Source: a virus. Taken from it: a stretch of 61,436 bases of DNA. Location: UHGV virus genome UHGV-0213688. The stretch is one strand, 5' to 3'. Each line of letters begins with the position of its first letter. Within the stretch, counting starts at the first letter, position 1. A program made the position numbers and the translations under genes. Positions 43,071 to 61,436 of this stretch are shown here, piece after piece. Below the pieces are notes generated by a model. It searched no databases. It saw nothing but the letters and a program-made list of their open reading frames with translations, and was not told the origin of the DNA.

Positions 43071-43071
43071 T

Positions 43072-46558: not shown

Positions 46559-46587
46559 AAAGCGCCCAATGAGGCGCTTTCTTTTTC
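46559..46587 (+). terminator. rho-independent terminator
   Basis: AAAGCGCC-CAATGA-GGCGCTTT followed by CTTTTTC. Confidence 0.65.
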
Positions 46588-46602
46588 ACTAGAGGATTTA
46601 AG

Positions 46603-47310: not shown

Positions 47311-47312
47311 CT

Positions 47313-47573: not shown

Positions 47574-47582
47574 GGTGGAATA

Positions 47583-47795
47583 ATGATCACTTTGGAAGAA
47601 GCGAAACAGCATCAGGAAATGATCACTGAGCTGGTAGAAAAACTTAATTCTGCAATTGCTCACGCTACTATGCAGGGTGTGCATGTTGAATTAGATATTA
47701 ATCACGTTAGTACAATTGGAGCACGCAATCATCCGATTGTGATGTCAAACGTAACAATCAACCCTTGTGATATTAAAGGTGTAGAAGATGAATGA
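47583..47795 (+). CDS. hypothetical small protein (possible paralogue of next gene)
   Basis: 70 aa; GAGGTGGAATA-ATG, same RBS context as upstream gene. Confidence 0.45.
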   Translation: MITLEEAKQHQEMITELVEKLNSAIAHATMQGVHVELDINHVSTIGARNHPIVMSNVTINPCDIKGVEDE

Positions 47796-47976
47796 AGAAA
47801 CTGTAATTCTTATGCAGAAAATTCAACGTTTACAGGACGAGTTGAATGACGCTATTTGCCGCGCTGCATCAAAGAAAATACATTCGGAGCTTGAAATACA
47901 CCAGCGCCGGGTAACATCTGAAGCGGTGGTGGAACAAGTAGTCATTAACCTCAATATTAGTCTTAAAGGTTTCTAA
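47788..47976 (+). CDS. hypothetical small protein
   Basis: 62 aa; overlaps upstream gene by 8 nt; AAAGGTG RBS. Confidence 0.45.
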   Translation: MNEETVILMQKIQRLQDELNDAICRAASKKIHSELEIHQRRVTSEAVVEQVVINLNISLKGF

Positions 47977-47977
47977 A

Positions 47978-48700
47978 ATGAACAAATTAGATAAACTGGT
48001 ATTCCCTGTAAAAAATCATAACTCCGCCGTTGTGGTCCTGTCTGGCGGTCAGGACAGCGTGACCTGTTTAGGTCTTGCACTTAATAACTATGATAAGGTT
48101 TACGCTATTGGTTTTGCATACGGTCAACGTCACACTGTGGAATTAGCTTGCGCTGAACAGATATGTAAAGAACACGATGTCCCATTTGTTGTCTTTGAAT
48201 TACCTGCTTTGAAACAGATTGGCAATAGCGCTTTAATTGGGAACGAAGGTGATGTTAACGAACATCACGAACAGCACAACAACCTTCCAGCAAGCTTTGT
48301 GCCAAACCGTAATGCTCTTTTCCTGACTACCGCGCACGCCTACGCGCAGAAAGTTGGTGCCCGATATGTGGTTACAGGCGTCTGTGAAACAGACTATAGC
48401 GGTTATCCGGATTGCCGCCAGCAGTTTGTAGACTTGCTTGAAGCTACGTTAAACGTTGGATATGAAACAGATATTCATTTCGTTACCCCGCTTATGCGTT
48501 TAAATAAAGCAGAAACGTTTGAGCTGGCGGATAAGGTTGGCTTCTTAACCACAGTAATTGAACAGTCCCATACTTGCTATAACGGTGTCCGTCGCACTCT
48601 GCATGACTGGGGCTATGGTTGCGGTGAATGCCCTGCGTGCAAACTGCGTGCTAAAGGGTACAGTGAATTTATGGATAACGCTTACAGCAAACACGTTTGA
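47978..48700 (+). CDS. queC: 7-cyano-7-deazaguanine (preQ0) synthase
   Basis: PP-loop VVLSGGQDS; C-terminal Zn-binding Cys cluster CYNG...CGECPACKLR; 240 aa with no amidotransferase fusion. Confidence 0.85.
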   Translation: MNKLDKLVFPVKNHNSAVVVLSGGQDSVTCLGLALNNYDKVYAIGFAYGQRHTVELACAEQICKEHDVPFVVFELPALKQIGNSALIGNEGDVNEHHEQHNNLPASFVPNRNALFLTTAHAYAQKVGARYVVTGVCETDYSGYPDCRQQFVDLLEATLNVGYETDIHFVTPLMRLNKAETFELADKVGFLTTVIEQSHTCYNGVRRTLHDWGYGCGECPACKLRAKGYSEFMDNAYSKHV

Positions 48701-48820
48701 TCTTACCGCGAAAACCGCACCGCTAGCGCATTGTTTAGGGTGCGGGAACCCAACTATACTACTAAACCTTTTAAACCCAACAACCAGCGAATAACGCTGT
48801 TAAAACTGGAGAACAAAAGT

Positions 48821-49300
48821 ATGAAATTTATCGTTGCTTATCTGGCTGCAATTACATTCGTAAACCTGGGCTTTTCCTACCTTCCAATGCTCAATACGCC
48901 TCTTGGCGTGGTCCCGATGATGGCTTTCTTTGTAGGTATTATCTTTGTGTTGCGTGACTACGCACAGCGTAACGCTGGTAAAGGCGTTATCCCTGCAATG
49001 ATTGTGGGTTGCATCCTTAGCTGGGTATTTGGGGATCCTGCTGTTGTAGTTGCATCCGTTGCATCCTTTGCTCTTAGCGAGTTTGCGGACTATGCGGTAT
49101 ACACGATTACTAAGAAGCCGTTTCATCAACGTGTATTTATTAGCTCTTTGGTAGCTGTACCGATTGACTCCATTGTGTTCTTAAGTATTATAGGTATTGT
49201 TAATCCGGGATCAATGGTAGCAATGAGCTTAAGTAAGTTCACAGCATCTGCTATTCTTTGGGTTGTTTACGAAGTTCATTCACGTACAGCGAGAGCGTAA
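48821..49300 (+). CDS. YhhQ/DUF165-like membrane protein (queuosine-precursor transporter family)
   Basis: ORF 48731..49300; preferred ATG 48821 after GGAG; about 159 aa, 4-5 hydrophobic helices; VLRDYAQRNAG and SEFADYAVY resemble YhhQ motifs; sits between queC and queD. Confidence 0.5.
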   Translation: MKFIVAYLAAITFVNLGFSYLPMLNTPLGVVPMMAFFVGIIFVLRDYAQRNAGKGVIPAMIVGCILSWVFGDPAVVVASVASFALSEFADYAVYTITKKPFHQRVFISSLVAVPIDSIVFLSIIGIVNPGSMVAMSLSKFTASAILWVVYEVHSRTARA

Positions 49301-49302
49301 AA

Positions 49303-49890
49303 ATGAAAGATAATTTGAATAAGATTTGGCACCAACACGACGGTAAAGGGATGCCTATTTTTCTTCGTAATGAGAAGTTTGAAGTTCGTTTGCGCAACGG
49401 CACACACGTTAAGAATTTATTAGATGGATGGGATTGGGCTATGGAAGGGCGTTCAGCTATGGATGAAAATAGCCCTTATAAAGTTCAAGATATTATAGCC
49501 TGGCGATATATCGTTGCGGATGATTACGTCAAACAAGCTAGCGAAAACACTCGCTCCGGATTGTACCATCAAGCTTCTGAAACAAGCATAAGTAATACAT
49601 TTAATGGTGCAGTTTTTACGAAATATGAACCATCTAAAATTCCCATGAATAAATATCAGAAAATTATTTATGGTAAAGATCAAAACGGCAATGTTGTAAA
49701 GTGCATCGTGGATGTGTATGATGTCTTGGAAGCTTGGAAGACAACTAACCCAGCTTTGCAGCATTTAATTAAAAAAGCGTTGCAGCCGGGCGAACGCGGT
49801 CATAAAAGTCTGGTAGAAGACTTGAAAGATATTATTGCATCCGCACAGCGTGCATTAGAAATTGAACAGTCTAAAGAGGTATTAAAATGA
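49303..49890 (+). CDS. hypothetical protein embedded in deazaguanine module
   Basis: ORF 49258..49890; preferred ATG 49303 directly after upstream stop; no motif recognised. Confidence 0.5.
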   Translation: MKDNLNKIWHQHDGKGMPIFLRNEKFEVRLRNGTHVKNLLDGWDWAMEGRSAMDENSPYKVQDIIAWRYIVADDYVKQASENTRSGLYHQASETSISNTFNGAVFTKYEPSKIPMNKYQKIIYGKDQNGNVVKCIVDVYDVLEAWKTTNPALQHLIKKALQPGERGHKSLVEDLKDIIASAQRALEIEQSKEVLK

Positions 49891-50423
49891 GCTATACAGT
49901 AATTCGTTCACATGAAATTTGCGCCGGACATCGTGTTGTAGGTCACGAAAGCAAATGTCGCCACCTCCACGGTCACAACTATAAGTTTCACTTTAAGGTT
50001 GCTCCGAAGCATGGATGCGGAAAAGTAGTGACACGAGGAAAGCTGATTGAGGACGGTCTGGACAGCGTTGGGCGCGTGATTGACTTTAGTGTGGTTAAAA
50101 CTACGCTCTGCCAGTGGCTAGAAGATAACTGGGATCATAAGTTTCTACATTGGGAAAAGGATATGTTGATCAACGGACTGCAATGTTGTATTGAAACGGA
50201 TACTCAATCTGAACGCGGTTGGCCTACTTTCGGTGAAGGGGATGAAGATCTTAAAGCTTTTAACGATTCACTGGTATCTTTGCCGTTCAACCCAACTGCG
50301 GAAAACCTAGCTGCATATATGGTTGAAGTGATTGGTCCGCTACTGCTTGACGAACATGGCGTTCAACTTGTAGAATGCACCATCGAAGAAACTTCGAAAT
50401 GTCACGTAAACTATAGCCTGTAA
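49887..50423 (+). CDS. queD: 6-carboxy-5,6,7,8-tetrahydropterin synthase
   Basis: CAGHRVVGHESKCRHLHGHNYKF matches the QueD Cys/His zinc and active-site signature; AAAGAGG RBS. Confidence 0.8.
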   Translation: MSYTVIRSHEICAGHRVVGHESKCRHLHGHNYKFHFKVAPKHGCGKVVTRGKLIEDGLDSVGRVIDFSVVKTTLCQWLEDNWDHKFLHWEKDMLINGLQCCIETDTQSERGWPTFGEGDEDLKAFNDSLVSLPFNPTAENLAAYMVEVIGPLLLDEHGVQLVECTIEETSKCHVNYSL

Positions 50424-50424
50424 T

Positions 50425-51063
50425 ATGACCACATTAACAAGGAAACTGCAAACCATGTCAAAATTTACTATTAATGACGAAAGTATTCAATTTGAAATTA
50501 CTCGCGCGGTGCGCGCTTTACTAACTCGAATTGAAAATTGCACTGAATTACGTCCAGGTTTGGAAGAGACTCCATATCGTGTCGCTAAAGCCTATGCTAC
50601 ATGGTTCGGCGGTTATAATGTGGATATTGCTGGTCTGTTTAAGACCTTTGAAGACGGGGCGGAAGGTTCAAATGAAATGGTCATCGTCCGTGATATTCCA
50701 GTTTATAGCCATTGTGAACACCATATAGCCCCTATTATCGGTCGCGCTGTTGTGGGGTATGTTCCTAACGGTCGCATTGTGGGGCTCAGTAAACTGTCTC
50801 GCGTTGTGGATGCTTTTAGTCGTCGACTGCAAGTTCAGGAACGTCTTACTAACCAGATTGCTGACGCTATCCAGGAACACCTGAATCCGAAAGCTGTATG
50901 TGTTTATATTGATGCCAAGCATATGTGCATGGAGTCGCGCGGTGTTAAGCAGGTATGCGGCAGCTCTACTATTACCAAAGCGTTCCGGGGCGCTACAGAA
51001 CTGGAGCATGGTAGCGATATTGGTAAAGAATGGCGCCGGGAGTTCCTCGAAGCTTGTAAATAA
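50425..51063 (+). CDS. folE: GTP cyclohydrolase I
   Basis: CEHHIAPIIG, GLSKLSRVVDAFSRRLQVQERLT and HMCMESRG motifs; start could instead be ATG 50455. Confidence 0.85.
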   Translation: MTTLTRKLQTMSKFTINDESIQFEITRAVRALLTRIENCTELRPGLEETPYRVAKAYATWFGGYNVDIAGLFKTFEDGAEGSNEMVIVRDIPVYSHCEHHIAPIIGRAVVGYVPNGRIVGLSKLSRVVDAFSRRLQVQERLTNQIADAIQEHLNPKAVCVYIDAKHMCMESRGVKQVCGSSTITKAFRGATELEHGSDIGKEWRREFLEACK

Positions 51064-51082
51064 TAGATAGCTTTACAGATCA

Positions 51083-51119
51083 AGCCCATATCGGTCATAA
51101 TACTGGTATGGGCTTTTTA
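51083..51119 (+). terminator. possible terminator (long loop)
   Basis: AGCCCATA - 16-nt loop - TATGGGCT followed by TTTTT. Confidence 0.4.
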
Positions 51120-51134
51120 GTCATTGGAGGAAAT

Positions 51135-51341
51135 ATGGTAAGACAATACTTTTTCAACGTTCGAGCTGTAGAAAAAGGTACTTTCAGAGTTCTGTTATGT
51201 ATGGACGGTATTGCTGAAAGCAGTAACGCAAAACAAATTCATGCGGATCTGCATGTTAGAGTTGAACAGATCTTAAGCGAGCAATGCTTTAAGAAAGAAA
51301 ATTATCTCATTGAAGTAGTCGCTTTAAACAACGTGGAGTAA
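51135..51341 (+). CDS. hypothetical small protein
   Basis: ORF 51108..51341; preferred ATG 51135 with GGAGG upstream. Confidence 0.45.
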   Translation: MVRQYFFNVRAVEKGTFRVLLCMDGIAESSNAKQIHADLHVRVEQILSEQCFKKENYLIEVVALNNVE

Positions 51342-51344
51342 GAA

Positions 51345-52265
51345 ATGAACGTTTTTATGGCAGCAGTTTACACAAACGGATATATGCCCGGGCAGCAGCG
51401 CTATGAAAAGCTGTCCGAGCATGAGAAAAATATCACGCGCAATCTGCCCCATATTTTGGAATCATACCACTACGTTGGACGTCAGAAGTATGTTGATCAA
51501 ATGCGTGCGGATGGGGCTAAAGTGTTTCTCGACTCCGGTGCATTCTCCGCGCACTCGTTAGGTGCTCACATTGATATTGTTGAATACTGCGAATACATCA
51601 AGCGCAACAAAGACATCCTTCGCGTAGAAGATGGTGCGGTGATGGCGTCAGTGCTCGATGGTATCGGTGATCCGTTGCAGACCTACCGTAACCAACTTGA
51701 AATGGAAGCACGCGGTGCTAAACCGTTACCTTGCTTTCACTTTGGGGAGGACTTCCGCTATCTTGAATACTACATGAAGAACTACGAATATATCACCATC
51801 GGGGGCATGGTAGGACGTTCCACAGACACGCTTAAAACTTGGCTGGACCGCATGTGGGACAAATACATTTGCGACGGTAGCGGACGTGCTAAGATTAAAC
51901 TTCATGCGTTTGGTATTACGTCCACAACCATTATGGAACGTTATCCGTGGTATAGCTGTGACTCTTCCTCCTGGATTCAAGCAGCAGCGTTTGGAAGTGT
52001 GGTTACTCCTCCGTGGGGCCCAATGCGCGTATCAGATAAGTCACCGGACCGCCATCATTTTGGTAAGCATGTTTCAACATTAACTGAAATTGAACAAGAC
52101 GCTGTCCTTAAATACCTTGAGCAAAACGGTTTCACTTACGAACGTTTATCAACAATCTATGAATCACGTGCTGCCTTCAACTTATGGGCGTATGGTGTAA
52201 TTGCTACAAACATTAACGCTACCCATGACGGCACATTCCGTGATCGTGTAATGGAGTTATTTTGA
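51345..52265 (+). CDS. dpdA: DpdA-like tRNA-guanine-transglycosylase homologue (7-deazaguanine DNA transglycosylase)
   Basis: TGT-like VFLDSGAFSAH motif and TIM-barrel-like pattern; no TGT zinc site; directly downstream of folE. Confidence 0.65.
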   Translation: MNVFMAAVYTNGYMPGQQRYEKLSEHEKNITRNLPHILESYHYVGRQKYVDQMRADGAKVFLDSGAFSAHSLGAHIDIVEYCEYIKRNKDILRVEDGAVMASVLDGIGDPLQTYRNQLEMEARGAKPLPCFHFGEDFRYLEYYMKNYEYITIGGMVGRSTDTLKTWLDRMWDKYICDGSGRAKIKLHAFGITSTTIMERYPWYSCDSSSWIQAAAFGSVVTPPWGPMRVSDKSPDRHHFGKHVSTLTEIEQDAVLKYLEQNGFTYERLSTIYESRAAFNLWAYGVIATNINATHDGTFRDRVMELF

Positions 52266-52492
52266 TGGCTAACTTAAGAAGACCAAAAGGCAAACGTAAA
52301 TATACTCACACAGGCGTAAGAATTAATTATTACGGTGAAAACAGAGTAGTATTTCTCCACAAGACACCTAAGCAGTGGCAGGATCCGTCAGGTACATGGT
52401 TTAATGCACAAGGAAAACAAATGGGGCTTTACGGATACCCTCCAACCTGCGAATTAGATTTAACCACAATTAGAGCAATCGAGGATCGCTAA
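52262..52492 (+). CDS. hypothetical small protein
   Basis: 76 aa; GGAG RBS; overlaps dpdA stop. Confidence 0.45.
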   Translation: MMANLRRPKGKRKYTHTGVRINYYGENRVVFLHKTPKQWQDPSGTWFNAQGKQMGLYGYPPTCELDLTTIRAIEDR

Positions 52493-52728
52493 TGACACCA
52501 GTATGTGAAGAATATATTACTTCTCAATCTAAAGCTGGGGGTAAAGCGGTAGGTCGTGTTGCTATCGCTAAGTTAACAAACGCGGGCTATGAACCAAAAG
52601 TCACCCCGCCTCCCCCTGAGCCCTGGATATGGGAGAAAAACGGGGGTCGTATTATAGCCATTACATCGTATATGGGACCTTTTAGATTAAAGATTGAGTA
52701 TCTTGTAGACTTAGATGGGGACTCCTAA
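52492..52728 (+). CDS. hypothetical small protein
   Basis: 78 aa; GAGGA RBS. Confidence 0.45.
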   Translation: MTPVCEEYITSQSKAGGKAVGRVAIAKLTNAGYEPKVTPPPPEPWIWEKNGGRIIAITSYMGPFRLKIEYLVDLDGDS

Positions 52729-53681
52729 TGCTTGACGCTCTTAAATTTGTTCAAGGCTCCGTCGCTAAAAAGGAACTGGTAGAAGGGCTTACCAGCTTTC
52801 TTATCCGTGATGGGCAGGTACAGGGCTTTAACGGTGTTATTGCACTGGGTAGTCCTATTGAGTTGGATATTGATTGCAAGCCCGAAGCTGGGCCTATGAT
52901 TAAAGCTATTTCCAACTGCGATGAAACAGTGCAGCTAACAATGATGGCTAACGGTAAGTTAAATATCAAGTCCGGTCCGTTTCGTGTTGCTATACGCTGC
53001 ATTGATAAAGAAACGCCGCACGTATTTCCTGAAGGTGATTTGTACGAAATAGACGGCGCTCGCTTCGTGCATGGTGTAAAGTCCGTTGCTCCATTTGTTG
53101 GGTCCGATGCTTCCCGTCCGTGGGCTTGCGGTATCCTGATTAATAACGGTAGCCTGTTTGCTACAAATAACGTCACTATTGCGGAATACTGGTTTGGTAA
53201 TCAGTTCCCTATTGATTGCATAATACCTTCCGTTGCAATTAAAGAAATACTGCGTATTAAAGCTAACCCGACGCATATTCAGGTTAGCAAGAATAACGTA
53301 ACGTTTCATTATCCGGAAGGTCGCTGGTTGCGGACACAGCTTATTGATGCGGAATGGCCCGATATACGTCGTATTTTAAATGTTCAATGCAATGCACATC
53401 CTGTTGATCCAGGTCTTTTTGAAGGCTTGCATAAAATTAAACCGTTCGCAGAAGACCGACCGCGTGTATATATTGAAAACGGTCTAGCCCGTACTCACTA
53501 TGATGATGCAGAAGGTGCAAGCTTCGTATTACAGGACCGCACTATAACGGGAGTGTACAATATTGACATCCTGCTATTGCTTGAAAATGTGGTTAAGACG
53601 GCGGACTTTAGTTTATATCCGCAACCTTGCGCATTCTTTGGGGAAAACCTTCGCGGTGTATTAATTGGAGAACGTGTATGA
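52728..53681 (+). CDS. putative sliding-clamp (DnaN beta-clamp-like) protein
   Basis: 317 aa just upstream of DNA polymerase; DAEWPDIRRILN resembles DnaN GRFPDYRRVLP; weak overall. Confidence 0.4.
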   Translation: MLDALKFVQGSVAKKELVEGLTSFLIRDGQVQGFNGVIALGSPIELDIDCKPEAGPMIKAISNCDETVQLTMMANGKLNIKSGPFRVAIRCIDKETPHVFPEGDLYEIDGARFVHGVKSVAPFVGSDASRPWACGILINNGSLFATNNVTIAEYWFGNQFPIDCIIPSVAIKEILRIKANPTHIQVSKNNVTFHYPEGRWLRTQLIDAEWPDIRRILNVQCNAHPVDPGLFEGLHKIKPFAEDRPRVYIENGLARTHYDDAEGASFVLQDRTITGVYNIDILLLLENVVKTADFSLYPQPCAFFGENLRGVLIGERV

Positions 53682-53824
53682 CAAATGAAGAAACATATAA
53701 AGAGGCTTGTGATAAGGTTATACTTTCGCGCTCAAATAAAAACCATAAACCTACACCTGCTCCGGAAGGGTTAAGCGACGATGAACTTTTAAAATGGTTG
53801 GAGTCTTTTAAAGATGAGGACTGA
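53678..53824 (+). CDS. small hypothetical protein (48 aa)
   Basis: ORF 53627..53824; preferred ATG 53678 with GGAG 8 nt upstream, ATGA overlap with upstream stop. Confidence 0.35.
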   Translation: MTNEETYKEACDKVILSRSNKNHKPTPAPEGLSDDELLKWLESFKDED

Positions 53825-55799
53825 TGCTATTGGTTTCTTTTGGCAGGACTTACCGCCTGAGCCAAAAGCAAAGAAAGAAAAGGTTAAACGTTTACCGCCG
53901 GAGCGCACTTGGGAGCGCCCGGATTATCTGCCAAACTTAGAGGAAGCGCGGAACTTCCAATACAACCTGTATACGCAGGACGAACTTATTCAAGCATGGA
54001 TTAACCGCGAACCGCTTGTATACGATATTGAATGTTATCCAAACTATTTCTTAATCGCGTTTCGCGGAGTACGGACTAAGAAAGTTGTCTACTTCGAAAT
54101 GTATCACGGTTGTAGTTTGAATTGCTTGTTACTTAACTGGATAATGACAAACTTCCTTATCGTAAGCTTTAACGGTAACGGGTACGATATGCTAATTGCT
54201 ACGCTTGCGCTTAACGGCTGCTCTAATGCTCAGCTTAAAGATGCAACCGATAAGATAATCGTTGAAGACTGGCGTCCTTCTGATGTGTTGAAGAGTTACC
54301 GCCTTAAGCGTATGCAGAACGTTAACCACATTGATATTATGGAAGTTCTGCCTGGATCTGGTGGTTTGAAACAATATGGCGGACGTGTACATACTCGCCG
54401 TATGCAGGATTTACCGTTCAAGCCAAATACAATGCTGACGCAGGACCAGATGTTGATTGCACGCTGGTACTGTATTAACGACCTTGTACAGACGGAAGAA
54501 TGTTTTATTGCATTGCAAGAGCCTTTGCACCTTCGTGAAATTATGTCGCAAGAATATGGTGTGGATCTGCGTTCACGTTCTGATGCGCAGATTGCAGAAG
54601 ACGTAATTAAACACGAAATTCAAGCGTTAACTGGTGTGCGTCCCCAGCGTCCCCAAGTTTATCCTGGAACAAAGTATGCGTATAACATACCGAACTTTAT
54701 TCGTTTTCAAACACCTCTGATGAATAGTGTTTTGGATATTGTTCGCGACTGCCGCTTTGTTGTTAGTGATAACGGTGGTGTTAGCTTGCCCCCAGCGTTA
54801 ACAGGTCTTGAAATCAAGATTGCGGACGGTGTCTACCGTATGGGTATTGGCGGTCTGCACAGCTCCGAAGAATGTGCTGGACATGGTAAAGAGCCAGGTA
54901 TTAAGAAGCGGGACATTGACGTAACGTCCTATTACCCTTCAATTATTCTTAATCAGGGCTTATACCCCGAACAGTTGGGACCAGCTTTCCTTCGTGTTTA
55001 TAAAAGCATTGTAGACCGTCGTATTGCGGCTAAGCACTCAGGGGACAAGAACACAGCCAACACGCTGAAGATCGTTATCAACGGATCGTTCGGTAAATTG
55101 GGTTCAATGTGGTCTGTATTGTACGCGCCACAATTATTGATACAGGTAACTATCACCGGACAGCTATCCCTGTTAATGCTTATTGAAGCATTCGAGCTAA
55201 ACGGTGTTAAAGTAATTTCAGCGAATACCGATGGTATTGTGGTTAAGTATCCCGACCACATGCAGGACTTCGTTGATAACATGATCAAGTGGTGGGAATC
55301 CGTCACAGGTTTTGAAATGGAATCCACTTATTATGACAAGCTATACAGTGCCAACGTCAATAACTATGTAGCTGTCAAAGAACCTGATGCAGAAGGTAAC
55401 GTTGAAGTTAAGCGTAAGGGCTGGTTTGCCAAGACAGGACTTCAAAAGAACTGTACGGGCGAAATTATCATGGAAGCGGTATGTGAATGCCTGGCCCACG
55501 GTACGCCTGTTTCTCGTACTATACGCAATTGCAACGATATTAGAAAATTCATTATCCTACGTGCGGTGAAAGGTGGCGCGGTATGGAATGGCGAATTTTT
55601 GGGTAAGGTTGTACGCTGGTATTTAAGCACCAATGAAGAAACTCCCGAAATAATCTATGCTAACTCGGGCAACCGTGTAGCTGGTAGCGCGGGAGGTGTC
55701 CCAATCATGACGCTACCGGATAAAATACCGGACGACATAGATTATGATGCTTATATAGCTAAAGCAGAGAAGTATCTCGAAGACATGGGATACGCCTAA
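53814..55799 (+). CDS. DNA polymerase, family B (with 3'-5' exonuclease domain)
   Basis: exo I YDIECYP; pol motif A DVTSYYPSIIL; motif B KIVINGSFGKLG; motif C SANTDGIVV. Confidence 0.8.
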   Translation: MRTDAIGFFWQDLPPEPKAKKEKVKRLPPERTWERPDYLPNLEEARNFQYNLYTQDELIQAWINREPLVYDIECYPNYFLIAFRGVRTKKVVYFEMYHGCSLNCLLLNWIMTNFLIVSFNGNGYDMLIATLALNGCSNAQLKDATDKIIVEDWRPSDVLKSYRLKRMQNVNHIDIMEVLPGSGGLKQYGGRVHTRRMQDLPFKPNTMLTQDQMLIARWYCINDLVQTEECFIALQEPLHLREIMSQEYGVDLRSRSDAQIAEDVIKHEIQALTGVRPQRPQVYPGTKYAYNIPNFIRFQTPLMNSVLDIVRDCRFVVSDNGGVSLPPALTGLEIKIADGVYRMGIGGLHSSEECAGHGKEPGIKKRDIDVTSYYPSIILNQGLYPEQLGPAFLRVYKSIVDRRIAAKHSGDKNTANTLKIVINGSFGKLGSMWSVLYAPQLLIQVTITGQLSLLMLIEAFELNGVKVISANTDGIVVKYPDHMQDFVDNMIKWWESVTGFEMESTYYDKLYSANVNNYVAVKEPDAEGNVEVKRKGWFAKTGLQKNCTGEIIMEAVCECLAHGTPVSRTIRNCNDIRKFIILRAVKGGAVWNGEFLGKVVRWYLSTNEETPEIIYANSGNRVAGSAGGVPIMTLPDKIPDDIDYDAYIAKAEKYLEDMGYA

Positions 55800-55809
55800 A
55801 TTCTACTTG

Positions 55810-55835
55810 CAGACCCTTCGCGGGTCTGTTTTAAT
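55810..55835 (+). terminator. rho-independent terminator
   Basis: CAGACCC-TTCGC-GGGTCTG followed by TTTTAAT. Confidence 0.6.
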
Positions 55836-55863
55836 ATATGCATACAACAAGAGGAGATACAAA

Positions 55864-56148
55864 ATGAGCTTAGTAGACGATTACAATAAAGGTAAAATCG
55901 ACGCGGTGGAACTTAACCGTCAGCTTAATAAACAAAATGAAGAACGCAAACAAGGTAAGTACCTTACAATGATTGTTGCACTTATCTTCACTGTTATTGG
56001 CGGATGTGTTTACGGCTACATTAACCACACTGTTGAAGCTGGCAATGAATGTCGCGCTAAATATCCAATTCACGTTGGTGTAACTCCACAGGAAGACATT
56101 GATGCGCTTCTGGAACTTCAAGCCTTATGTCGTAAAGGGAAAGCATAA
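55864..56148 (+). CDS. small membrane protein
   Basis: ORF 55807..56148; preferred ATG 55864 after AGAGGAG; central hydrophobic helix. Confidence 0.5.
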   Translation: MSLVDDYNKGKIDAVELNRQLNKQNEERKQGKYLTMIVALIFTVIGGCVYGYINHTVEAGNECRAKYPIHVGVTPQEDIDALLELQALCRKGKA

Positions 56149-56681
56149 TGAAACGTTTATTACTCGTAGCCTTGCTGATAGCGCCTGGTGTCCAAGCTGT
56201 GGATTTAAAAGATGCAGCAAAGAAACTATGCCAAGACCATCCTATTAAGTTACAATGTGAAGAGCTTGTATCCAGCATGTTAACCAATTCTTACGTGATG
56301 GGACAAACGCAGCTTGGATGTGAGTTAGGTATTATTGATGCGTGCAAAGCAGCGCGTACCAATAAACATTTTGAAAAGAACGCACGTTGGCTGGAGCAGC
56401 GCATTAGAACCCTTGATCATAGGGGTACTTTTGGGGGGCTAGCCGCGTGTAAAACCTTAAAGGGGTACATTAGCATGGCTGGTAAAGAAAAGAGCGTAGC
56501 AAGCGATTTAGCTGCGGATGTAGCAAGTCGCGAACCGTGGCAACATGGTGACAAACCAGTAGTTTACATTCACGTCTATTACTGGAATAATATGACAGCG
56601 GAGCAACAAGAAGCGTTGAAAGTTTTAGCCGACGTTATTGTTGTTCCTGAGGAACCATCACCGGAAACACCGGAAGCGTAA
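56148..56681 (+). CDS. secreted/periplasmic protein with signal peptide
   Basis: N-terminus MKRLLLVALLIAPGVQA followed by Cys-containing mature region. Confidence 0.55.
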   Translation: MKRLLLVALLIAPGVQAVDLKDAAKKLCQDHPIKLQCEELVSSMLTNSYVMGQTQLGCELGIIDACKAARTNKHFEKNARWLEQRIRTLDHRGTFGGLAACKTLKGYISMAGKEKSVASDLAADVASREPWQHGDKPVVYIHVYYWNNMTAEQQEALKVLADVIVVPEEPSPETPEA

Positions 56682-56688
56682 CAAATAA

Positions 56689-56716
56689 ATACCCGCGTTC
56701 GCGCGGGTATTTTAAG
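56689..56716 (+). terminator. probable rho-independent terminator
   Basis: ATACCCGCG-TTCG-CGCGGGTAT followed by TTTAAGG. Confidence 0.45.
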
Positions 56717-56724
56717 GAGCGAGC

Positions 56725-56910
56725 ATGGCTAAAGCAGCAAAAGGTTATCGACAGACCTTTAAATTGATAGGCGGACCGTGGGACGGGCAGAAGGTGCAAT
56801 TATATAGCGCTGGAACGCTGGAATTTTCAGTGAAAAGCTTCGACTCACGTCCAGGGCGCTATGTACCCACGGGCAATAATTATAATCTAATTTGGGAGTT
56901 TGCTAAATAA
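56725..56910 (+). CDS. hypothetical small protein
   Basis: 61 aa; AAGGAG RBS. Confidence 0.45.
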   Translation: MAKAAKGYRQTFKLIGGPWDGQKVQLYSAGTLEFSVKSFDSRPGRYVPTGNNYNLIWEFAK

Positions 56911-57117
56911 ATGAATGAATATGTGGTTATGTATTTTGTGATTGGCGCAATTGTTGCAGCAATGACTTATTTCTTTTGTTGGAATAACTATGACTATGCG
57001 CTAGCCCATAAGAAACGTTGGGAGAAGATTGTGGGTCTTCTATGTATACTCGCTTGCTGGCCAGTCACTATTATTGCGACTGCGTATGATCAATACATGT
57101 ACAGGAGACGCAAATGA
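56911..57117 (+). CDS. small membrane protein
   Basis: 68 aa, two hydrophobic helices. Confidence 0.45.
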   Translation: MNEYVVMYFVIGAIVAAMTYFFCWNNYDYALAHKKRWEKIVGLLCILACWPVTIIATAYDQYMYRRRK

Positions 57118-57395
57118 TGGAATATCTATTAGTTGTCGTTGCGCTATTTCTAATCATTGTTGTTATAATGACCGGAGATAGTAATGAGAAGGGCTTTACA
57201 GCAATGAGCAGGGCGTTATTACGCGCCCTTGCTGTAGCACTACTTGGGACCAGCTTTGCTATGGCGTTTGGGATTGTAGACATCCCTAGCACCTATTATG
57301 GCTTTGTTAAAGTTCAACACCAACTTACTTATGCTACCGTCGTCGGATTGGGTGCTGTAACACTTGCAATCCTGTCAGCTTTTCATAAGCGTTAA
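57114..57395 (+). CDS. small membrane protein
   Basis: 93 aa, three hydrophobic segments; AGGAG RBS. Confidence 0.5.
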   Translation: MMEYLLVVVALFLIIVVIMTGDSNEKGFTAMSRALLRALAVALLGTSFAMAFGIVDIPSTYYGFVKVQHQLTYATVVGLGAVTLAILSAFHKR

Positions 57396-57396
57396 A

Positions 57397-57429
57397 CAAA
57401 AAGGGGCTCTAGCGGCCCCTTTTCTCTTC
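57397..57429. terminator. bidirectional rho-independent terminator
   Basis: AAAGGGGC-TCTAGCG-GCCCCTTT with A-run upstream and T-rich run downstream; between convergent genes. Confidence 0.65.
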
Positions 57430-57633
57430 TTAGAATATACGAAAGAAAGCACCGTATGGGTATACGCCAAAAGTATTGAAAACAGGCGGTGCAAAAGCAT
57501 TTACAAACACAGGAGTTGGCGCTACTGGTTGAAAAGTTTTGCAATTACACGCTGCTTGAGCCAATTGCCCCTGAAGTATACCTGCTTGTGTTGCAGGACT
57601 GCCTAGACAGCAACGGTTAGTATTACCACACAT
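57430..57633 (-). CDS. small Cys-rich protein (67 aa)
   Basis: AAGGAGG 7 nt upstream of ATG 57633; MCGNTNRCC...CNC; last gene before terminator. Confidence 0.45.
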   Translation of the reverse strand: MCGNTNRCCLGSPATQAGILQGQLAQAACNCKTFQPVAPTPVFVNAFAPPVFNTFGVYPYGAFFRIF

Positions 57634-57644
57634 AGTAGACCTCC

Positions 57645-57929
57645 TTAAAGGTCGCTTTCGTTATCCTGCTTGGAACTGGGCTTTTCGGCTTCAATCATCC
57701 CAAGTACCGCAATAACTTTAACAGCAATACGCTGAGCCAGACTGATTTGCTGCTGTGTTAATTTTCCGGTCGACACCACAGTCATTAATCCGCTTAAGTT
57801 TCCAAGAGACTTGAAATCACTGAATGCGGATTTCATAATAGTAAGTTGATCATGACCTTCATCAGCTATAACATGAGCACGAATAGAAAGTCCTTCAACA
57901 ACTTTATCAATACCTTCATTCTTCGTCAT
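57645..57929 (-). CDS. hypothetical protein
   Basis: 94 aa ORF, overlaps upstream gene by 14 nt. Confidence 0.5.
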   Translation of the reverse strand: MTKNEGIDKVVEGLSIRAHVIADEGHDQLTIMKSAFSDFKSLGNLSGLMTVVSTGKLTQQQISLAQRIAVKVIAVLGMIEAEKPSSKQDNESDL

Positions 57930-58446
57930 TTGGTTTTACCTTCTGCTCCGGTTTCTGAGGGACCGTTTGAGCGGTCTTTGGCTGCAACACTTCCTGATCA
58001 ATCATTGGTGGCCACGGACTAATATGTTCGCGGGCTTCTACAGGTTGCTCCGGTTGCACGCCAAGAAACTTATTAATAAAATCACCTGCAAAGTCTGTAC
58101 CATCGCTGACGTAAACGTGCATACGATCAAGATCAGACTGACTAATGGAGTTTGGAGCGATCGTGATTTTAAACTGGTGGAAGCCGACATACATCACATT
58201 CACGGGTCGTTCGATAGTGCCCGGCGTAGGCGGTATCACTCCCATAATCCAACAGTAATGAACCCTTCCATCGCCCATAGGTTCACAGCCAGCATTAAGC
58301 CAGCTAACCTTCTGGTGTGGGAACATGGTAGTTGAATCGGTAGCGTCCCGACGTAACGTCCAATCAACACCGCCCATGTTGATGGAGTTTTTCGGTTTCA
58401 TCCCGTTGAACTGGGTTACGCCCATTCCTGCGTTTACGTTTTGCAT
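57916..58446 (-). CDS. hypothetical protein
   Basis: 176 aa ORF. Confidence 0.5.
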   Translation of the reverse strand: MQNVNAGMGVTQFNGMKPKNSINMGGVDWTLRRDATDSTTMFPHQKVSWLNAGCEPMGDGRVHYCWIMGVIPPTPGTIERPVNVMYVGFHQFKITIAPNSISQSDLDRMHVYVSDGTDFAGDFINKFLGVQPEQPVEAREHISPWPPMIDQEVLQPKTAQTVPQKPEQKVKPNDEE

Positions 58447-58461
58447 GTCGGCTTCCTATTC

Positions 58462-58830
58462 TTACATATCTTTCATTTTTTGAAGAGCGCAAGTACAAGC
58501 TGCGGCAAGATCAGTCAACTCTTTCATGATCCCTGCGAGGTCGCCTTCTTTCTTACACTCCATTAATTCGCGGTATTCCATTTCAACAATGGACATCATA
58601 CCGCCGGGCTTGTCGTGGTACGCCGCCCACGTATGCGGAGGTTCTTCCATCCGGTCAAGAACATTTGACATAGCTGCCATATGTTCATGATCTCGAGCAT
58701 AAGAGTGAGCATGTTTATATTCCTCTTTCTCATGTTCATGGTGGTGCTCGCCTACGCTAATGCGAGGTAAAGCAACCTTAGGCAATTTGACCCGTGGTAT
58801 TCCCATCGTTGCGATTTTAATGTGGCTCAT
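58462..58830 (-). CDS. His-rich protein, possible MazG-like NTP pyrophosphohydrolase
   Basis: AGAGGT RBS; HHHEHEKEEYKHAH stretch; EMEYRELMECKKEGD...ELTDLAAACTCAL resembles the MazG/HisE E-rich helix pair. Confidence 0.4.
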   Translation of the reverse strand: MSHIKIATMGIPRVKLPKVALPRISVGEHHHEHEKEEYKHAHSYARDHEHMAAMSNVLDRMEEPPHTWAAYHDKPGGMMSIVEMEYRELMECKKEGDLAGIMKELTDLAAACTCALQKMKDM

Positions 58831-58901
58831 GATAGTACCTCTGTTAAAAGCGCCCCAAGCGGAGGAGCGAAAGGCGCTTTAGTTTAACCACACTTCAACG
58901 A

Positions 58902-59609
58902 TTAGCAGCAGCCAGTCGGAGGAGTTGGAGGAGTTGGCAGTTTAAAGTTAACTAACTGCTCAACCTGATTGATCTTACAAGTAAGACCAGCCGTCTGTGC
59001 CAACTGGGAGTTTGCAAAGCGAGCTTCCTGCAACTGAGATTTCAGGTCACAGATCAGAACTGCTTGCGCCTGCGCGTGCTGGTCACGGATTAGCGCACGG
59101 GTAGCTTCAGCTTGACGCTCGATGTTCAGGTTGGTTTCGCAGCAACACTTCTGAGCTTCTAACTGTGCTTGGAAAGAACGGGTGATGTTAGCTGCTTCGT
59201 TGCTACACAGAGCCGCGAGCACTTGGCTGGTGCTACCCTGAATTTGAGTGTTGAGACCGGCAAAGCCCTGAACGGAAGCCAGCATGTTCTGAGTGTTCTG
59301 CTGAGTGATGCCGTTATAGGTAGAAGCAGCGGAGCGCTCAACAGTCAGGTTAGTACCGTTCTGCCCCTGAATGGTCTGAAGAGTACCGTTGTTGATAGCT
59401 TGCAGAATTGCGTTGGTGTCAACAGAAGCTTGCACTTCCACCGGACCAGCGAAGTTACCGCGACCACCCCAACCACCATTGCCGCCCCAACCGTTACCGA
59501 TCCAGGAACCAATCAAACCACCGATTGCACCACCGATACCAGCCGCACCAGCTTCACCGCCGAAACCGTCGCCACCGAGATTAGTAGGTAAAAGAGTCAT
59601 GTCAGACAT
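58902..59609 (-). CDS. glycine-rich protein with Cys-rich C-terminus
   Basis: ORF 58902..59738 begins at TTG; preferred ATG 59609 (MSDMTLLP); N-terminal GGDGFGGEAGAAGIGGAIGGLIGSWIGNGWGGNGGWGGRG; Gln/Asn/Thr-rich middle; CCCET and terminal GCC. Confidence 0.5.
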   Translation of the reverse strand: MSDMTLLPTNLGGDGFGGEAGAAGIGGAIGGLIGSWIGNGWGGNGGWGGRGNFAGPVEVQASVDTNAILQAINNGTLQTIQGQNGTNLTVERSAASTYNGITQQNTQNMLASVQGFAGLNTQIQGSTSQVLAALCSNEAANITRSFQAQLEAQKCCCETNLNIERQAEATRALIRDQHAQAQAVLICDLKSQLQEARFANSQLAQTAGLTCKINQVEQLVNFKLPTPPTPPTGCC

Positions 59610-59739
59610 AGGAAAATCTCCATATATGGATTTGTTAAGCGGATGTAACCAACTGGTTACGAAGTAAAGCATACCCCTTAACACGATTTTTACAATCATC
59701 CAAATGTAAAGATTTTGTAAATTAGGATTGACAGTCAAT

Positions 59740-59764
59740 AAAAAAGCGCGCCCGAAGACGCGCT
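59740..59764 (-). terminator. rho-independent terminator downstream of tail fibre gene (minus strand)
   Basis: minus-strand RNA forms AGCGCG-UCUUCGGG-CGCGCU followed by UUUUUU. Confidence 0.65.
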
Positions 59765-59781
59765 GTTGAAGTTAGATGTGG

Positions 59782-61383
59782 TTATGGAAGGTTAGTTTGT
59801 TGTGAACCATTCGCTTCTTTTAATGCAGCAAGTTCTGTTTCCAATTTCTCCACCTTTTCCATCAAAGCAAGAATTGCTTCATGATGCAAAGCGGCAGCAA
59901 CACCATAAGTATCTACACCCTTAACGTCGGAGATCACCTCATTACCACGTAAAGTCATGGAGCCCGCATTGAAGACAGCATCTGGGAATACTTTCTCCAC
60001 ATCCTGGGCAATGAAGCCATAGTTAACCTTAGAGTTGTCATGCTTGACACGCCACGATACACCCTTAATGGAGCGCATAGCGCCAAGAGGGTTAGGGATA
60101 CGTGTAATATCTTCCTTGATACGCTCGTCAGAAGAAGTGCTCCACCCACCCGAACATACAGCATTACCACCCTTCAAGAACTGGAAATACCTCTGAGTAT
60201 CAACACCACCAGACGAAGTGGTCATTAAGGTAATATCGCCCTTCCGTTCGGAGTAGACTCGCGCATATACTGTATCATCTGGTGAGACGAAGTCCAAAAA
60301 CCCTTCGATATCACTACCACGACCCACGATACGCATAAAACTACCCCTGGAACGTATGAGGCCAGGTACATTTAAGTCACCATCATCGCCGAAGTCAAAG
60401 TTCTGAGTAGTACCTAGAGTAGCGTTGTACACTGATACACGGGCCGCATACGTAGAACCTATCGTACCGACCATACGGAAATCTGCGGAACCATTCAACT
60501 GACTACCAACACGGTACTCACTTATAACACGGCCACCAGTAACAAATGTTGTTGCGGGCGGTAGTGTGGAATCACTGTTTATCACAGACCATGACGTATT
60601 CGCGGCAATGAACCCACCAGATGCACGTATAACCCAGACGCCGACGAAGTTGCGGCCCATAATCTCGTCAGTTGATGCTCCGTAAATTGGACTCGAGCGT
60701 GAAGCGTTAAAATTACATGTGTTATAGCGACCTGCTATTGCTTTTGTACCTCCAGGGATTGCATCACCCCCGCTATCATCAGGGAATATGCTATTGTCGG
60801 AATAAAATGCACCATGAGATGTGCCAATAGCCTGCGCGTAACTCCCACTGGAATAAGTGGTAAAATAACCTGTAATATTTGGTGCAGCTGATTCAAATAC
60901 TTGTCCGTTTGCACTACTAACGCCGCCATCACCACGACCATAAAGCGCTCTGACTGATCCTTCTTGAACACCGTTTTTATCGGGGACACGAAAAGTTGTT
61001 GCTCCGTCACCCTTAGAATATTTGCCGCGCTGGAATTTATCAGCCAGCCATTCAGAATCATCTATAGCGCCCACCATTTGAGCGTAATTCCATAATTCAG
61101 GCCAGTCAGCGCGATTAAGCAATTGACCGTCAGCGACCACTTCATACGGTTGTATATATGCACGACTATCCCGAAGATGGAAATCCCCTACCCCGTAATT
61201 CATCACCCCGTTCATTGTTGGACCAACTGTACCTGTGTTAATCAGGTTCTCTACCCAACGTTTAGTTGTTGCATCATAATCGCTAACTGGGTCCCCAGCT
61301 AAGGGTGTAGACCCAATTGGTCGAACGTTTAACCACGCAGCAGCACGGTCCGCAAGATCAGATAGGTTATTACTTTTATCCAT
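59782..61383 (-). CDS. tail fibre / tailspike protein with C-terminal intramolecular chaperone (S74-like self-cleaving) domain
   Basis: 533 aa; C-terminus SSDERIKEDITRIP...GFIAQDVEKVFPDAV... then coiled-coil ETELAALKEANG matches the endosialidase/L-shaped-fibre chaperone domain signature. Confidence 0.7.
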   Translation of the reverse strand: MDKSNNLSDLADRAAAWLNVRPIGSTPLAGDPVSDYDATTKRWVENLINTGTVGPTMNGVMNYGVGDFHLRDSRAYIQPYEVVADGQLLNRADWPELWNYAQMVGAIDDSEWLADKFQRGKYSKGDGATTFRVPDKNGVQEGSVRALYGRGDGGVSSANGQVFESAAPNITGYFTTYSSGSYAQAIGTSHGAFYSDNSIFPDDSGGDAIPGGTKAIAGRYNTCNFNASRSSPIYGASTDEIMGRNFVGVWVIRASGGFIAANTSWSVINSDSTLPPATTFVTGGRVISEYRVGSQLNGSADFRMVGTIGSTYAARVSVYNATLGTTQNFDFGDDGDLNVPGLIRSRGSFMRIVGRGSDIEGFLDFVSPDDTVYARVYSERKGDITLMTTSSGGVDTQRYFQFLKGGNAVCSGGWSTSSDERIKEDITRIPNPLGAMRSIKGVSWRVKHDNSKVNYGFIAQDVEKVFPDAVFNAGSMTLRGNEVISDVKGVDTYGVAAALHHEAILALMEKVEKLETELAALKEANGSQQTNLP

Positions 61384-61436
61384 CTTTTCGGATTTAAGCT
61401 TTGTAATGTCCTGAGGGATATTAGTACAAGTAGTCA

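What the first reader, a model, noticed from the sequence alone, without database searches (positions are those of the whole stretch)
59782..61383. Two tail fibre genes at opposite window ends suggest a single fibre module split by linearisation
The fibre at 59782..61383 has a C-terminal self-cleaving intramolecular chaperone domain. The minus-strand operon it heads would run directly into the fibre at 281..2386 if the window were circularised. That implies the window is close to one genome length, with the arbitrary ends falling inside the late structural region. No direct terminal repeat is visible between the first and last 60 nt.
Basis: inference. Interest (0 to 1): 0.45.

Follow-up and report, generated by a model that had tools for sequence, protein, structure and literature searches.

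The report
Phage tail-fibre operon split by linearisation
The window is one complete, arbitrarily opened genome of a Seuratvirus-type E. coli phage, and its two end-located tail-fibre genes are neighbours in one ordinary lateral-tail-fibre operon whose second gene has its start codon cut in two by the window ends.

Summary

- **Genome.** The window (61,436 bp, 44.6% G+C) is collinear over its whole length with the complete Seuratvirus genome vB_EcoS_SA126VB. It is reverse-complemented and circularly permuted relative to that record, and both junctions are seamless.
- **Junction.** A public 4,422-nt contig (Logan SRR7892484_509) matches the joined window ends at 100% identity. No base is missing or duplicated.
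- **Gene order on the minus strand.** Fibre 1 (2386→281), a small ORF (279→55), the window junction, fibre 2 (ending at 59782), then a conserved intrinsic terminator (59764–59745).

1. Fibre 2 is the last gene of the fibre operon, not the head of one. Fibre 1 runs into it, not the reverse.
2. Its true start is an ATG that straddles the ends (A at position 1, TG at 61436–61435). This gives 551 aa; 61383 is internal Met19.
3. The family is reported as probably headful-packaging, so no fixed ends are expected.

The Peptidase_S74 chaperone domain is real, with Ser436 and Lys441 in the motif SDERIK. The same three-gene cassette occurs in T5-like and Nonagvirus phages. This is a new allele of a known kind, of low interest.

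The parts
281..2386 (-). Fibre 1 (701 aa), the proximal lateral tail fibre. It has a lambda-Stf-like tail-attachment N-terminus, an Ala-rich coiled-coil region and a C-terminal LamG-type domain. It has no S74 chaperone domain.
   Evidence: PF08400 E=5.3e-23 at aa 11-144 of the 711-aa ORF, and PF13385 E=3.6e-8. Residues 1-91 align to the lambda side tail fibre N-terminus in PDB 9e7m (E=3e-14). The SD sequence AAGAGGT precedes the ATG at 2386. It is 83-89% identical to SA126VB_22, phiG7_32 and BRET_23. Residues 179-701 are 74% identical to T5-like FFH1 ORF133. The identical protein is encoded on Logan contig SRR7892484_509.
55..279 (-). Small inter-fibre ORF (phrog_1361, function unknown). It is 74 aa here and 88 aa in relatives, truncated by a +1 frameshift.
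   Evidence: phrog_1361 E=5e-22. The DNA alignment shows one extra G relative to four relatives. The conserved C-terminus EQFIIKNPCVRKWA is lost. Removing one base restores an 88-aa ORF ending at TAA 14..12.
80..84 (.). C5/G5 homopolymer holding the extra base that frameshifts the small ORF.
   Evidence: The same run is present in the Logan contig. All other listed members of the cluster are 88 aa.
1..13 (-). First base (A) of the fibre 2 start codon at position 1, and the Shine-Dalgarno AAGAGGT at 13..7.
   Evidence: In the alignment with SA126VB, phiG7, BRET and FFH1 the ATG is invariant and is used as the annotated start.
59782..61436 (-). Fibre 2 (551 aa including the A at window position 1). 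It is the distal, specificity-bearing fibre with a C-terminal S74 intramolecular chaperone. The last two bases of its ATG are 61436-61435.
   Evidence: aa 15-367 align to DT57C LtfA 527-879, E=2.8e-130; homologues align from residue 1; mosaic map. The gene caller on Logan contig L007 starts the gene at this ATG.
59782..60132 (-). C-terminal intramolecular chaperone (Peptidase_S74) fragment, aa 436-551 plus the stop codon. It starts at the predicted nucleophile Ser436 (codon 60132-60130), with Lys441 five residues on. The predicted released fragment is 12.7 kDa and the mature fibre 46.6 kDa.
   Evidence: PF13884. SDERIKEDI aligns with residue 1 (SDERHKTDI) of the released GA-1 gp12 chaperone fragment in 3GUD, and with SSDRRIKKDI of S16 gp37 in 6F45.
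59745..59764 (-). Intrinsic terminator ending the fibre operon (AGCGCGTCTTCGGGCGCGCT followed by a T-run).
   Evidence: SA126VB carries an annotated rho-independent terminator at the equivalent position, just downstream of its fibre gene. The hairpin is identical in six metagenomic Seuratvirus loci and in SA126VB, whatever the fibre allele.
19207..21301 (-). terS (21301->20744) and terL (20766->19207). Reference Seuratvirus records are conventionally opened at terS, which corresponds to window 21309/21310.
   Evidence: (the SA126VB record ends map to window 21309|21310), and (Terminase_6N E=5.4e-6).
2511..6161 (.). Upstream context: the J-like tail tip gene (6161->3510, minus strand) and the divergently oriented DUF6453 gene (2511..3476, plus strand) that precede the fibre operon.
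   Evidence: The order is the same in SA126VB, phiG7 and metagenomic loci.

Best explanation
The window is one complete unit-length genome of a Seuratvirus (Queuovirinae; dPreQ0-modified siphovirus of E. coli). It is written as the reverse complement of the usual orientation and opened at an arbitrary point, so its ends are not physical ends. The opening falls inside the start codon of the last gene of the lateral-tail-fibre operon. When the window is circularised, the operon reads on the minus strand as follows: fibre 1 (a lambda-Stf-type tail anchor, a coiled coil and a LamG domain), then an 88-aa-type small ORF (frameshifted here to 74 aa), then fibre 2 (551 aa), then a terminator. Shown here: fibre 2 has a conserved N-terminal half, a divergent distal tip (aa 311-435) and a C-terminal S74 intramolecular chaperone with an intact Ser436/Lys441 motif. 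Inferred from knowledge of this domain family: the chaperone drives trimer folding and then cleaves itself off before Ser436, leaving a 435-aa mature fibre. Inferred from co-inheritance: only fibre 1 has a tail-attachment domain. The unit made of the distal part of fibre 1, the small ORF and fibre 2 moves as a block between T5-like, Nonagvirus and Seuratvirus phages, while the anchor stays lineage-specific. Fibre 2 therefore most likely rides on fibre 1, giving a two-protein (branched or serial) lateral fibre. In that arrangement the variable tip of fibre 2 would be the main O-antigen specificity determinant. The stated confidence applies to the genome topology, gene order and gene model; the composite-fibre step alone I rate at about 0.6.
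For: Genome topology. Local blastn gives window 1..21309 matching SA126VB 21312..1, and window 21310..61436 matching 61753..21313. This covers 91% of the window, with about 83% of window positions identical. Logan contig SRR7892484_509 (4,422 nt) matches window 3033..1 plus 61436..60048 at 100% with no gaps. There is no terminal repeat. Six contigs of about 60 kb encoding an identical TerL carry terL at six different offsets. The Seurat genome paper infers pac-headful packaging from TerL and opened the genome at terS by convention (PMC4342423). BASEL Seuratvirus assemblies were usually circular, and another Seuratvirus assembled as a circle for which PhageTerm gave no reorientation.

Operon structure. 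The start codon, RBS and conserved 18-codon N-terminus are shown. The terminator is shown. The same three-gene order occurs in SA126VB, phiG7, BRET and FFH1.

S74 domain.

Mosaicism. Fibre 2 aa 19-200 are 84-99% identical to the cassette homologues. Residues 311-435 are only 15-28% identical to them, but 63-65% identical to DT571/2 LtfA. Fibre 1 aa 1-100 are 100% identical to the Seuratvirus homologues and 15% to T5-like FFH1, while its remainder is 65-90% identical to FFH1. Other Seuratvirus genomes match only from about window 1683-1771 upward and from about 59794 downward.

Precedent. Two-protein fibres are described in DT57C and DT571/2 (PMC4728585, PMC10713586) and in AKFV33 (PMC3326045).
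Against: Physical ends were not measured for this phage, and the headful packaging mode comes from the literature on relatives plus a weak Terminase_6N hit. The Logan contig may come from the same reads as the window, so it shows that reads span the junction but is not an independent isolate. The window ends fall exactly within a start codon. A random break would do this rarely, so the record may have been re-opened deliberately with an off-by-one error; I could not distinguish these. For the composite-fibre model there is no direct evidence of a fibre 1-fibre 2 contact. The N-terminus of fibre 2 does not match the LtfB/phiEco32 gp15 docking peptide, and fibre 1 gave no BLASTP match (E<=1e-3) to DT571/2 LtfA, and hence none to its gp14-like docking region. 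Fibre 1 lacks an S74 domain. The small ORF is frameshifted in this genome, and its fold search was uninformative.
Confidence: 0.9

Rival explanations
1. The window ends are the real physical ends of the virion DNA (a cos site or short terminal repeat lying between the small ORF and fibre 2), so the two fibre genes are truly separated in the packaged chromosome.
For: The break is oddly precise, falling inside a start codon. Nothing in the sequence alone rules out a blunt or cohesive end there.
Against: There is no terminal repeat. A contig spans the junction at 100% identity. Homologous complete genomes are continuous across this point, and assemblies of relatives open at many different positions. 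Seurat TerL analysis suggests headful packaging. A fixed end there would cut an essential late gene away from its RBS.
Confidence: 0.03
2. The two fibres are independent appendages. Each would attach to the tail on its own and recognise its own receptor. On this view the shared operon reflects only co-regulation, not one composite fibre.
For: Fibre 1 ends in a LamG (lectin-like) domain that could itself bind glycan. Fibre 2 shows no similarity to the known LtfB/gp15 docking peptide. Some Seuratvirus loci encode a single fused fibre carrying both phage_tail_N and S74 (L018).
Against: Fibre 2 has no recognisable tail-attachment domain. Its N-terminus is conserved at 83-99% in phages with unrelated tails (T5-like FFH1 versus the Queuovirinae). 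The fibre 1 anchor, in contrast, is lineage-specific (15% identity), and the rest of fibre 1 co-travels with fibre 2. That pattern fits attachment through fibre 1.
Confidence: 0.25
3. The window is a fragment of a larger element (a prophage or a larger phage), and the two fibre genes are unrelated genes that merely happen to sit near its ends.
For: None beyond the lack of a terminal repeat.
Against: The window is fully collinear with a complete 61.7-kb virulent phage genome. Both permutation junctions are seamless. No extra sequence lies at either end.
Confidence: 0.01

Closest known systems
Escherichia phages vB_EcoS_SA126VB (OL960573) and phiG7 (OQ791410), genus Seuratvirus, Queuovirinae
   Same: Whole-genome collinearity. 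The order is identical: J, DUF6453, fibre 1, small ORF, fibre 2, terminator. Fibre 1 is 83-89% identical and the small ORF 88-90% identical.
   Different: About 83% of window positions are identical to SA126VB, which suggests a different species. Fibre 2 is only 60-61% identical overall, and 25-28% identical in the distal tip aa 311-435. Fibre 2 is 551 aa here versus 586 aa. The small ORF is intact (88 aa) in both relatives.
Two-protein L-shaped tail fibres of T5-like phages: DT57C and DT571/2 LtfA/LtfB (PMC4728585; PDB 8HQZ), and the AKFV33 and FFH1 ORF137/136/135-type cassette (PMC3326045)
   Same: Two adjacent fibre genes, of which only the first carries the tail anchor. The C-terminal S74 chaperone is self-cleaving. 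Fibre 2 aa 15-367 match DT57C LtfA 527-879 (E=2.8e-130), and its tip is 63-65% identical to DT571/2 LtfA. FFH1 carries the same three-gene cassette, including the 88-aa ORF.
   Different: The region that forms the distal half of LtfA in DT57C and DT571/2 is a separate polypeptide here. Fibre 1 ends in LamG, not S74. There is no similarity to the LtfB N-terminal docking peptide or to the phiEco32 gp14-like segment of LtfA. The anchor is lambda-Stf-like rather than T5 pb1-like. DT57C and DT571/2 have no small inter-fibre ORF.
C-terminal intramolecular chaperone domains (Peptidase_S74): K1F endosialidase, T5 pb1, GA-1 gp12 (3GUD), S16 gp37 (6F45)
   Same: The Pfam match, the S-D-x-R-x-K motif with Ser and Lys five residues apart, the position at the extreme C-terminus of a fibre, and a following Leu/Glu-rich segment predicted to be helical.
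   Different: Nothing detectable at the sequence level. Cleavage itself was not tested.

Membership tests
Peptidase_S74 / C-terminal intramolecular chaperone domain | Significant match to the family profile | tested here: met
   PF13884: 54.7 bits against a gathering cut-off of 22, E=1.2e-14, profile positions 1-57 of 58.
Peptidase_S74 / C-terminal intramolecular chaperone domain | Catalytic Ser at the domain boundary with Lys five residues downstream (S-D-x-R-x-K) | tested here: met
   Ser436-Asp-Glu-Arg-Ile-Lys441. It aligns to residue 1 of the released GA-1 fragment in 3GUD and to S16 gp37 in 6F45.
Peptidase_S74 / C-terminal intramolecular chaperone domain | Autoproteolytic release after trimer folding | not testable with these tools
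   This needs SDS-PAGE or mass spectrometry of virions or recombinant protein. Predicted products are 46.6 and 12.7 kDa.
Genus Seuratvirus (Queuovirinae) | Genome-wide nucleotide similarity of about 70% or more to members, with collinear gene order | tested here: met
   91% of the window aligns to SA126VB and about 83% of positions are identical. The best hits throughout are Seuratvirus genomes. G+C is 44.6%, within the 44.43-44.79% reported for 14 newly sequenced Seuratvirus isolates.
Genus Seuratvirus (Queuovirinae) | 7-deazaguanine (dPreQ0) gene cluster | tested here: inconclusive
   Window 47574-51146 and 39519-47310 align at 89-93% to the SA126VB region annotated with FolE, QueD, QueC and QueE. 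The window proteins were not scanned individually.
Headful (pac) packaging with a circularly permuted chromosome | No fixed termini; the assembly closes into a circle | tested here: met
   A contig spans the joined ends at 100% identity. There is no terminal repeat. Relatives' contigs open at many different positions.
Headful (pac) packaging with a circularly permuted chromosome | Permuted, terminally redundant virion DNA; TerL of a headful clade | not testable with these tools
   The only support is the literature on phage Seurat and a weak Terminase_6N hit. No PDB relative was found.
DT57C-type branched lateral tail fibre (LtfA/LtfB) | Two adjacent fibre genes, with only the first carrying a tail-attachment domain | tested here: met
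   PF08400 and the lambda Stf N-terminus occur in fibre 1 only.
DT57C-type branched lateral tail fibre (LtfA/LtfB) | The second fibre's N-terminal ~45 aa resemble phiEco32 gp15, and the first fibre has a gp14-like docking segment | tested here: not met
   BLASTP aligns fibre 2 aa 30-361 to LtfB 185-513 only. There is no match to LtfB 1-45, and fibre 1 has no match to LtfA. The module works like a two-protein fibre but is not a member of this docking type.
DT57C-type branched lateral tail fibre (LtfA/LtfB) | Both fibre proteins end in an S74 chaperone | tested here: not met
   Fibre 1 ends in Laminin_G_3 and has no PF13884 match.

The most novel reading that the evidence does not exclude
The three-gene unit (distal fibre 1 with LamG, the 88-aa ORF, and fibre 2 with S74) is a self-contained, horizontally mobile composite-fibre cassette. 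It plugs onto lineage-specific anchors in T5-like, Nonagvirus and Seuratvirus tails. It would use a docking mode different from the phiEco32/DT57C gp14-gp15 type, with the conserved 18-residue N-terminus of fibre 2 and/or the small protein acting as connector. In this phage the connector is frameshifted, which might uncouple or alter fibre 2 attachment.
Probability: 0.3. Interest if true: 0.3.

Novelty: new member of a known kind. Interest (0 to 1): 0.12.

Why it matters
The main value is practical, for annotation. A linear record opened at this point hides the true start of the specificity-bearing fibre gene. It yields a truncated 533-aa call and makes one operon look like two unrelated end genes. 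The finding also adds one more allele to the well-known hypervariable lateral-fibre locus of the Queuovirinae. The distal tip of that allele is closest (63-65% identity) to DT571/2 LtfA, which recognises the O87 antigen. It also illustrates exchange of a fibre cassette between siphovirus families. None of this challenges current understanding.

Tried and rejected
- **Exact look-up of fibre 2.** The 533-aa product is not on record. Fibre 1 gave the useful contig instead.
- **Function of the small ORF.** Pfam gave no hit and PHROGs gave only an unknown-function family. The family is shallow, with 11 clusters at 78% identity or more. The AlphaFold2 model had mean pLDDT 69.4, and only one of five models was reasonable. 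Foldseek against the PDB returned no hit at E<=0.001, only generic ferredoxin-like alpha/beta folds. I treat this as uninformative.
- **Packaging class from TerL.** There was no PDB relative, and only a weak Terminase_6N match.
- **Promoter for the fibre operon.** The consensus scan found no match of 9/12 or better on the minus strand in 2387-2510. I rely on the SA126VB annotators' promoter call in the homologous intergenic region.
- **Repeat that could explain the break point.** None was found.
- **Is the window phage φHS1?** I rejected this idea. That phage has a single long fibre with a T5 pb1-like tip (bioRxiv 10.64898/2026.05.19.726188).
Full report
**1. What is at the coordinates**

The minus-strand ORF 59782..61383 (533 aa) is real. 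It carries a Pfam Peptidase_S74 "chaperone of endosialidase" domain at aa 418-470 (E=1.2e-14, 54.7 bits against a cut-off of 22).

The other end of the window holds a 701-aa minus-strand gene, 2386→281. It has a phage_tail_N domain (E=5.3e-23) and a C-terminal Laminin_G_3 domain. Its first 91 residues align to the N-terminal tail-attachment piece of the lambda side tail fibre in PDB 9e7m (E=3e-14).

The two window ends share no overlap of 5 nt or more. The window contains no exact direct repeat of 20 nt or more.

**2. The window is one complete, permuted genome**

Megablast of both ends finds Seuratvirus (Queuovirinae) phages. I fetched the whole 61,753-bp genome of vB_EcoS_SA126VB and ran blastn locally.
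- Window 1..21309 aligns to record 21312..1.
- Window 21310..61436 aligns to record 61753..21313.
- 91% of the window is covered, and about 83% of window positions are identical.

Both permutation junctions are seamless to the base. Window 61436 and window 1 correspond to adjacent record positions 21313 and 21312. The record's own ends, which lie 8 nt before terS, correspond to adjacent window positions 21309 and 21310.

A public Logan contig, SRR7892484_509 (4,422 nt), was found through the exact fibre 1 protein. It matches window 3033..1 followed by 61436..60048 at 100% identity with no gaps. The contig may derive from the same sample as the window.

G+C is 44.6%, within the 44.43-44.79% reported for 14 newly sequenced Seuratvirus isolates (PMC5758909).

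**3. Are the ends physical?**

Probably not, for four reasons.
- The Seurat genome paper reports that TerL comparison suggests pac-headful packaging, and that the genome was opened at terS "for annotation purposes" (PMC4342423).
- BASEL authors usually obtained circular contigs and re-linearised them at terS (PMC8594841).
- Six contigs of about 60 kb that encode the identical TerL carry terL at six different offsets.

In the window itself, TerL gives only a weak Terminase_6N hit and has no PDB relative. The packaging class therefore rests on the literature. Termini were not measured for this phage.

**4. Corrected gene model and polarity**

I translated the minus strand across the joined ends. 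The frame of the S74 fibre stays open 18 codons upstream of the ATG at 61383, up to an ATG whose A is the complement of window position 1. Its TG is the complement of 61436-61435. AAGAGGT (window 13..7) lies six nucleotides upstream. The ATG at 61383 has no comparable Shine-Dalgarno sequence.

A DNA alignment with SA126VB, phiG7, Nonagvirus BRET and T5-like FFH1 shows three things.
- This ATG is invariant.
- It is the annotated start in all four phages.
- Most of the changes in the 18 codons are synonymous third-position changes.

tblastn hits in many phages align from query residue 1. The gene caller on the Logan contig also starts the gene there. Fibre 2 is therefore 551 aa, and the window ends cut its start codon between A and TG.

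On the minus strand the order is as follows:
1. fibre 1 (2386→281)
2. the small ORF (279→55)
3. a 53-nt spacer
4. fibre 2 (position 1, then 61436→59782)
5. an 8-bp GC-rich hairpin with a T-run at 59764-59745, 17 nt after the stop codon

The hairpin and the following intergenic region of about 170 nt are almost invariant. This holds in SA126VB and in six metagenomic Seuratvirus loci that carry quite different fibre alleles. SA126VB annotators also called a terminator there.

Fibre 2 is therefore the last gene of the fibre operon. The conclusion that the genes are contiguous is still right.

**5. The chaperone domain**

The motif S436-D-E-R-I-K441 sits at the start of the Pfam match. It aligns with residue 1 (SDERHKTDI) of the released chaperone fragment of GA-1 gp12 (3GUD). 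It also aligns with SSDRRIKKDI of Salmonella phage S16 gp37 (6F45).

In this domain family the Ser/Lys pair performs autocleavage after the trimer has folded. The family's behaviour is described in the DT57C paper (PMC4728585); the assignment of catalysis to the Ser/Lys pair rests on my own knowledge of the literature on K1F endosialidase and T5 pb1. Predicted products are a 435-aa mature fibre of 46.6 kDa and a 116-aa fragment of 12.7 kDa. Cleavage itself is inferred, not shown.

**6. What the module is**

Fibre 2 aa 15-367 match residues 527-879 of DT57C LtfA (PDB 8HQZ chain d, E=2.8e-130).

| Protein | Region (aa) | Identity to SA126VB, phiG7, FFH1, BRET | Identity to DT571/2 LtfA |
|---|---|---|---|
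| Fibre 2 | 19-200 | 84-99% | 58-91% |
| Fibre 2 | 311-435 (distal tip) | 15-28% | 63-65% |
| Fibre 2 | 436-551 (chaperone) | 25-75% | 61-84% |

DT571/2 LtfA recognises the O87 antigen (PMC4728585).

For fibre 1 the pattern is reversed. Residues 1-100 are 100% identical to the Seuratvirus homologues but only 15% identical to FFH1 ORF133. The N-terminus of FFH1 ORF133 instead matches T5-type LtfA. The rest of fibre 1 is 65-90% identical to FFH1.

Other Seuratviruses match the window only from about 1683-1771 upward and from about 59794 downward. The exchangeable cassette is thus roughly window 1770→1 plus 61436→59795.

[quoted passage not shown] They also note that such fibres may be built from one or several proteins.

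Only fibre 1 has an anchor, and the rest travels as a block between phages with unrelated tails. I therefore infer that fibre 2 is carried by fibre 1. This resembles the two-protein fibres of DT57C and DT571/2 and of AKFV33, where the large subunit was detected in virions.

The window module does not share the docking signatures of the DT57C type.
- There is no match to LtfB residues 1-45.
- Fibre 1 has no match to LtfA.
- Fibre 1 has no S74 domain.

It therefore works like that system without being a member of it. The rival view, that the two fibres attach independently, keeps about 0.25 probability.

**7. Side observation: a frameshift in the small ORF**

The window has one extra G in a G-run (window 80-84 on the plus strand) relative to all four relatives. 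The small ORF becomes 74 aa instead of 88 aa and loses the conserved tail EQFIIKNPCVRKWA.

The same run is present in the Logan contig. Every other listed member of the 35-member protein cluster is 88 aa. This could be a real mutation or a shared sequencing error; the question is open.

The function of the small protein stayed unknown.
- PHROGs places it in phrog_1361, an unknown-function family.
- The AlphaFold2 model had mean pLDDT 69.
- Foldseek against the PDB gave nothing at E<=0.001.

**8. Verdict**

Three corrections apply: the operon polarity, the true start codon, and the expectation of fixed ends.

The finding is an artefact of where a circular map was opened, combined with an ordinary and well-documented hypervariable lateral-fibre locus. 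The fibre allele is new: 60-67% identical to its nearest relatives overall, with a tip closest to DT571/2 LtfA. Its kind is known. Interest is low.

Noticed in passing
window 80-84 (within the small ORF 55..279, minus strand): One extra G in a G5 run relative to SA126VB, phiG7, BRET and FFH1 frameshifts the small inter-fibre ORF. It becomes 74 aa instead of 88 aa and loses a conserved C-terminal motif. The same run is present in Logan contig SRR7892484_509. All other listed cluster members are 88 aa.
   Followed up: partly
window 1 and 61435-61436: The window ends fall exactly between the A and the TG of the fibre 2 start codon. A random break would land inside a start codon only rarely. The record may have been re-opened at a gene boundary with an off-by-one error; I could not decide.
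   Followed up: partly
window 59610-59781 (minus strand): The intergenic region after fibre 2, including the terminator hairpin, is nearly invariant across Seuratvirus loci with very different fibre alleles. It marks the right-hand recombination boundary of the fibre cassette and probably holds the promoter of the next gene (59609->58902, phrog_9288, unknown function).
   Followed up: partly
window 2511-3476 (plus strand): A DUF6453 / phrog_1265 gene sits on the opposite strand between the J-like tail tip gene and the fibre operon. This is where BASEL authors place the terminal-receptor RBP locus. The real start is probably Met13 of the listed ORF, since relatives are 321 aa.
   Followed up: no
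window 57916-58446 (minus strand): The C-terminus (aa 114-176) of this conserved 176-aa protein of unknown function (phrog_8329) weakly matches the C-terminal end of a tail-fibre family (phrog_4128, E=1.8e-7). The genes downstream of the fibre operon may therefore also be fibre-associated.
   Followed up: no
L015-L020 (metagenomic Seuratvirus loci): The fibre locus occurs in several architectures at the same position. Examples are a fibre of about 700 aa plus a 91-aa ORF plus a 380-aa S74 fibre, and a single fused 827-aa fibre carrying both phage_tail_N and S74. One contig of about 60 kb (ERR4191870_42493) also ends inside its fibre gene.
   Followed up: no
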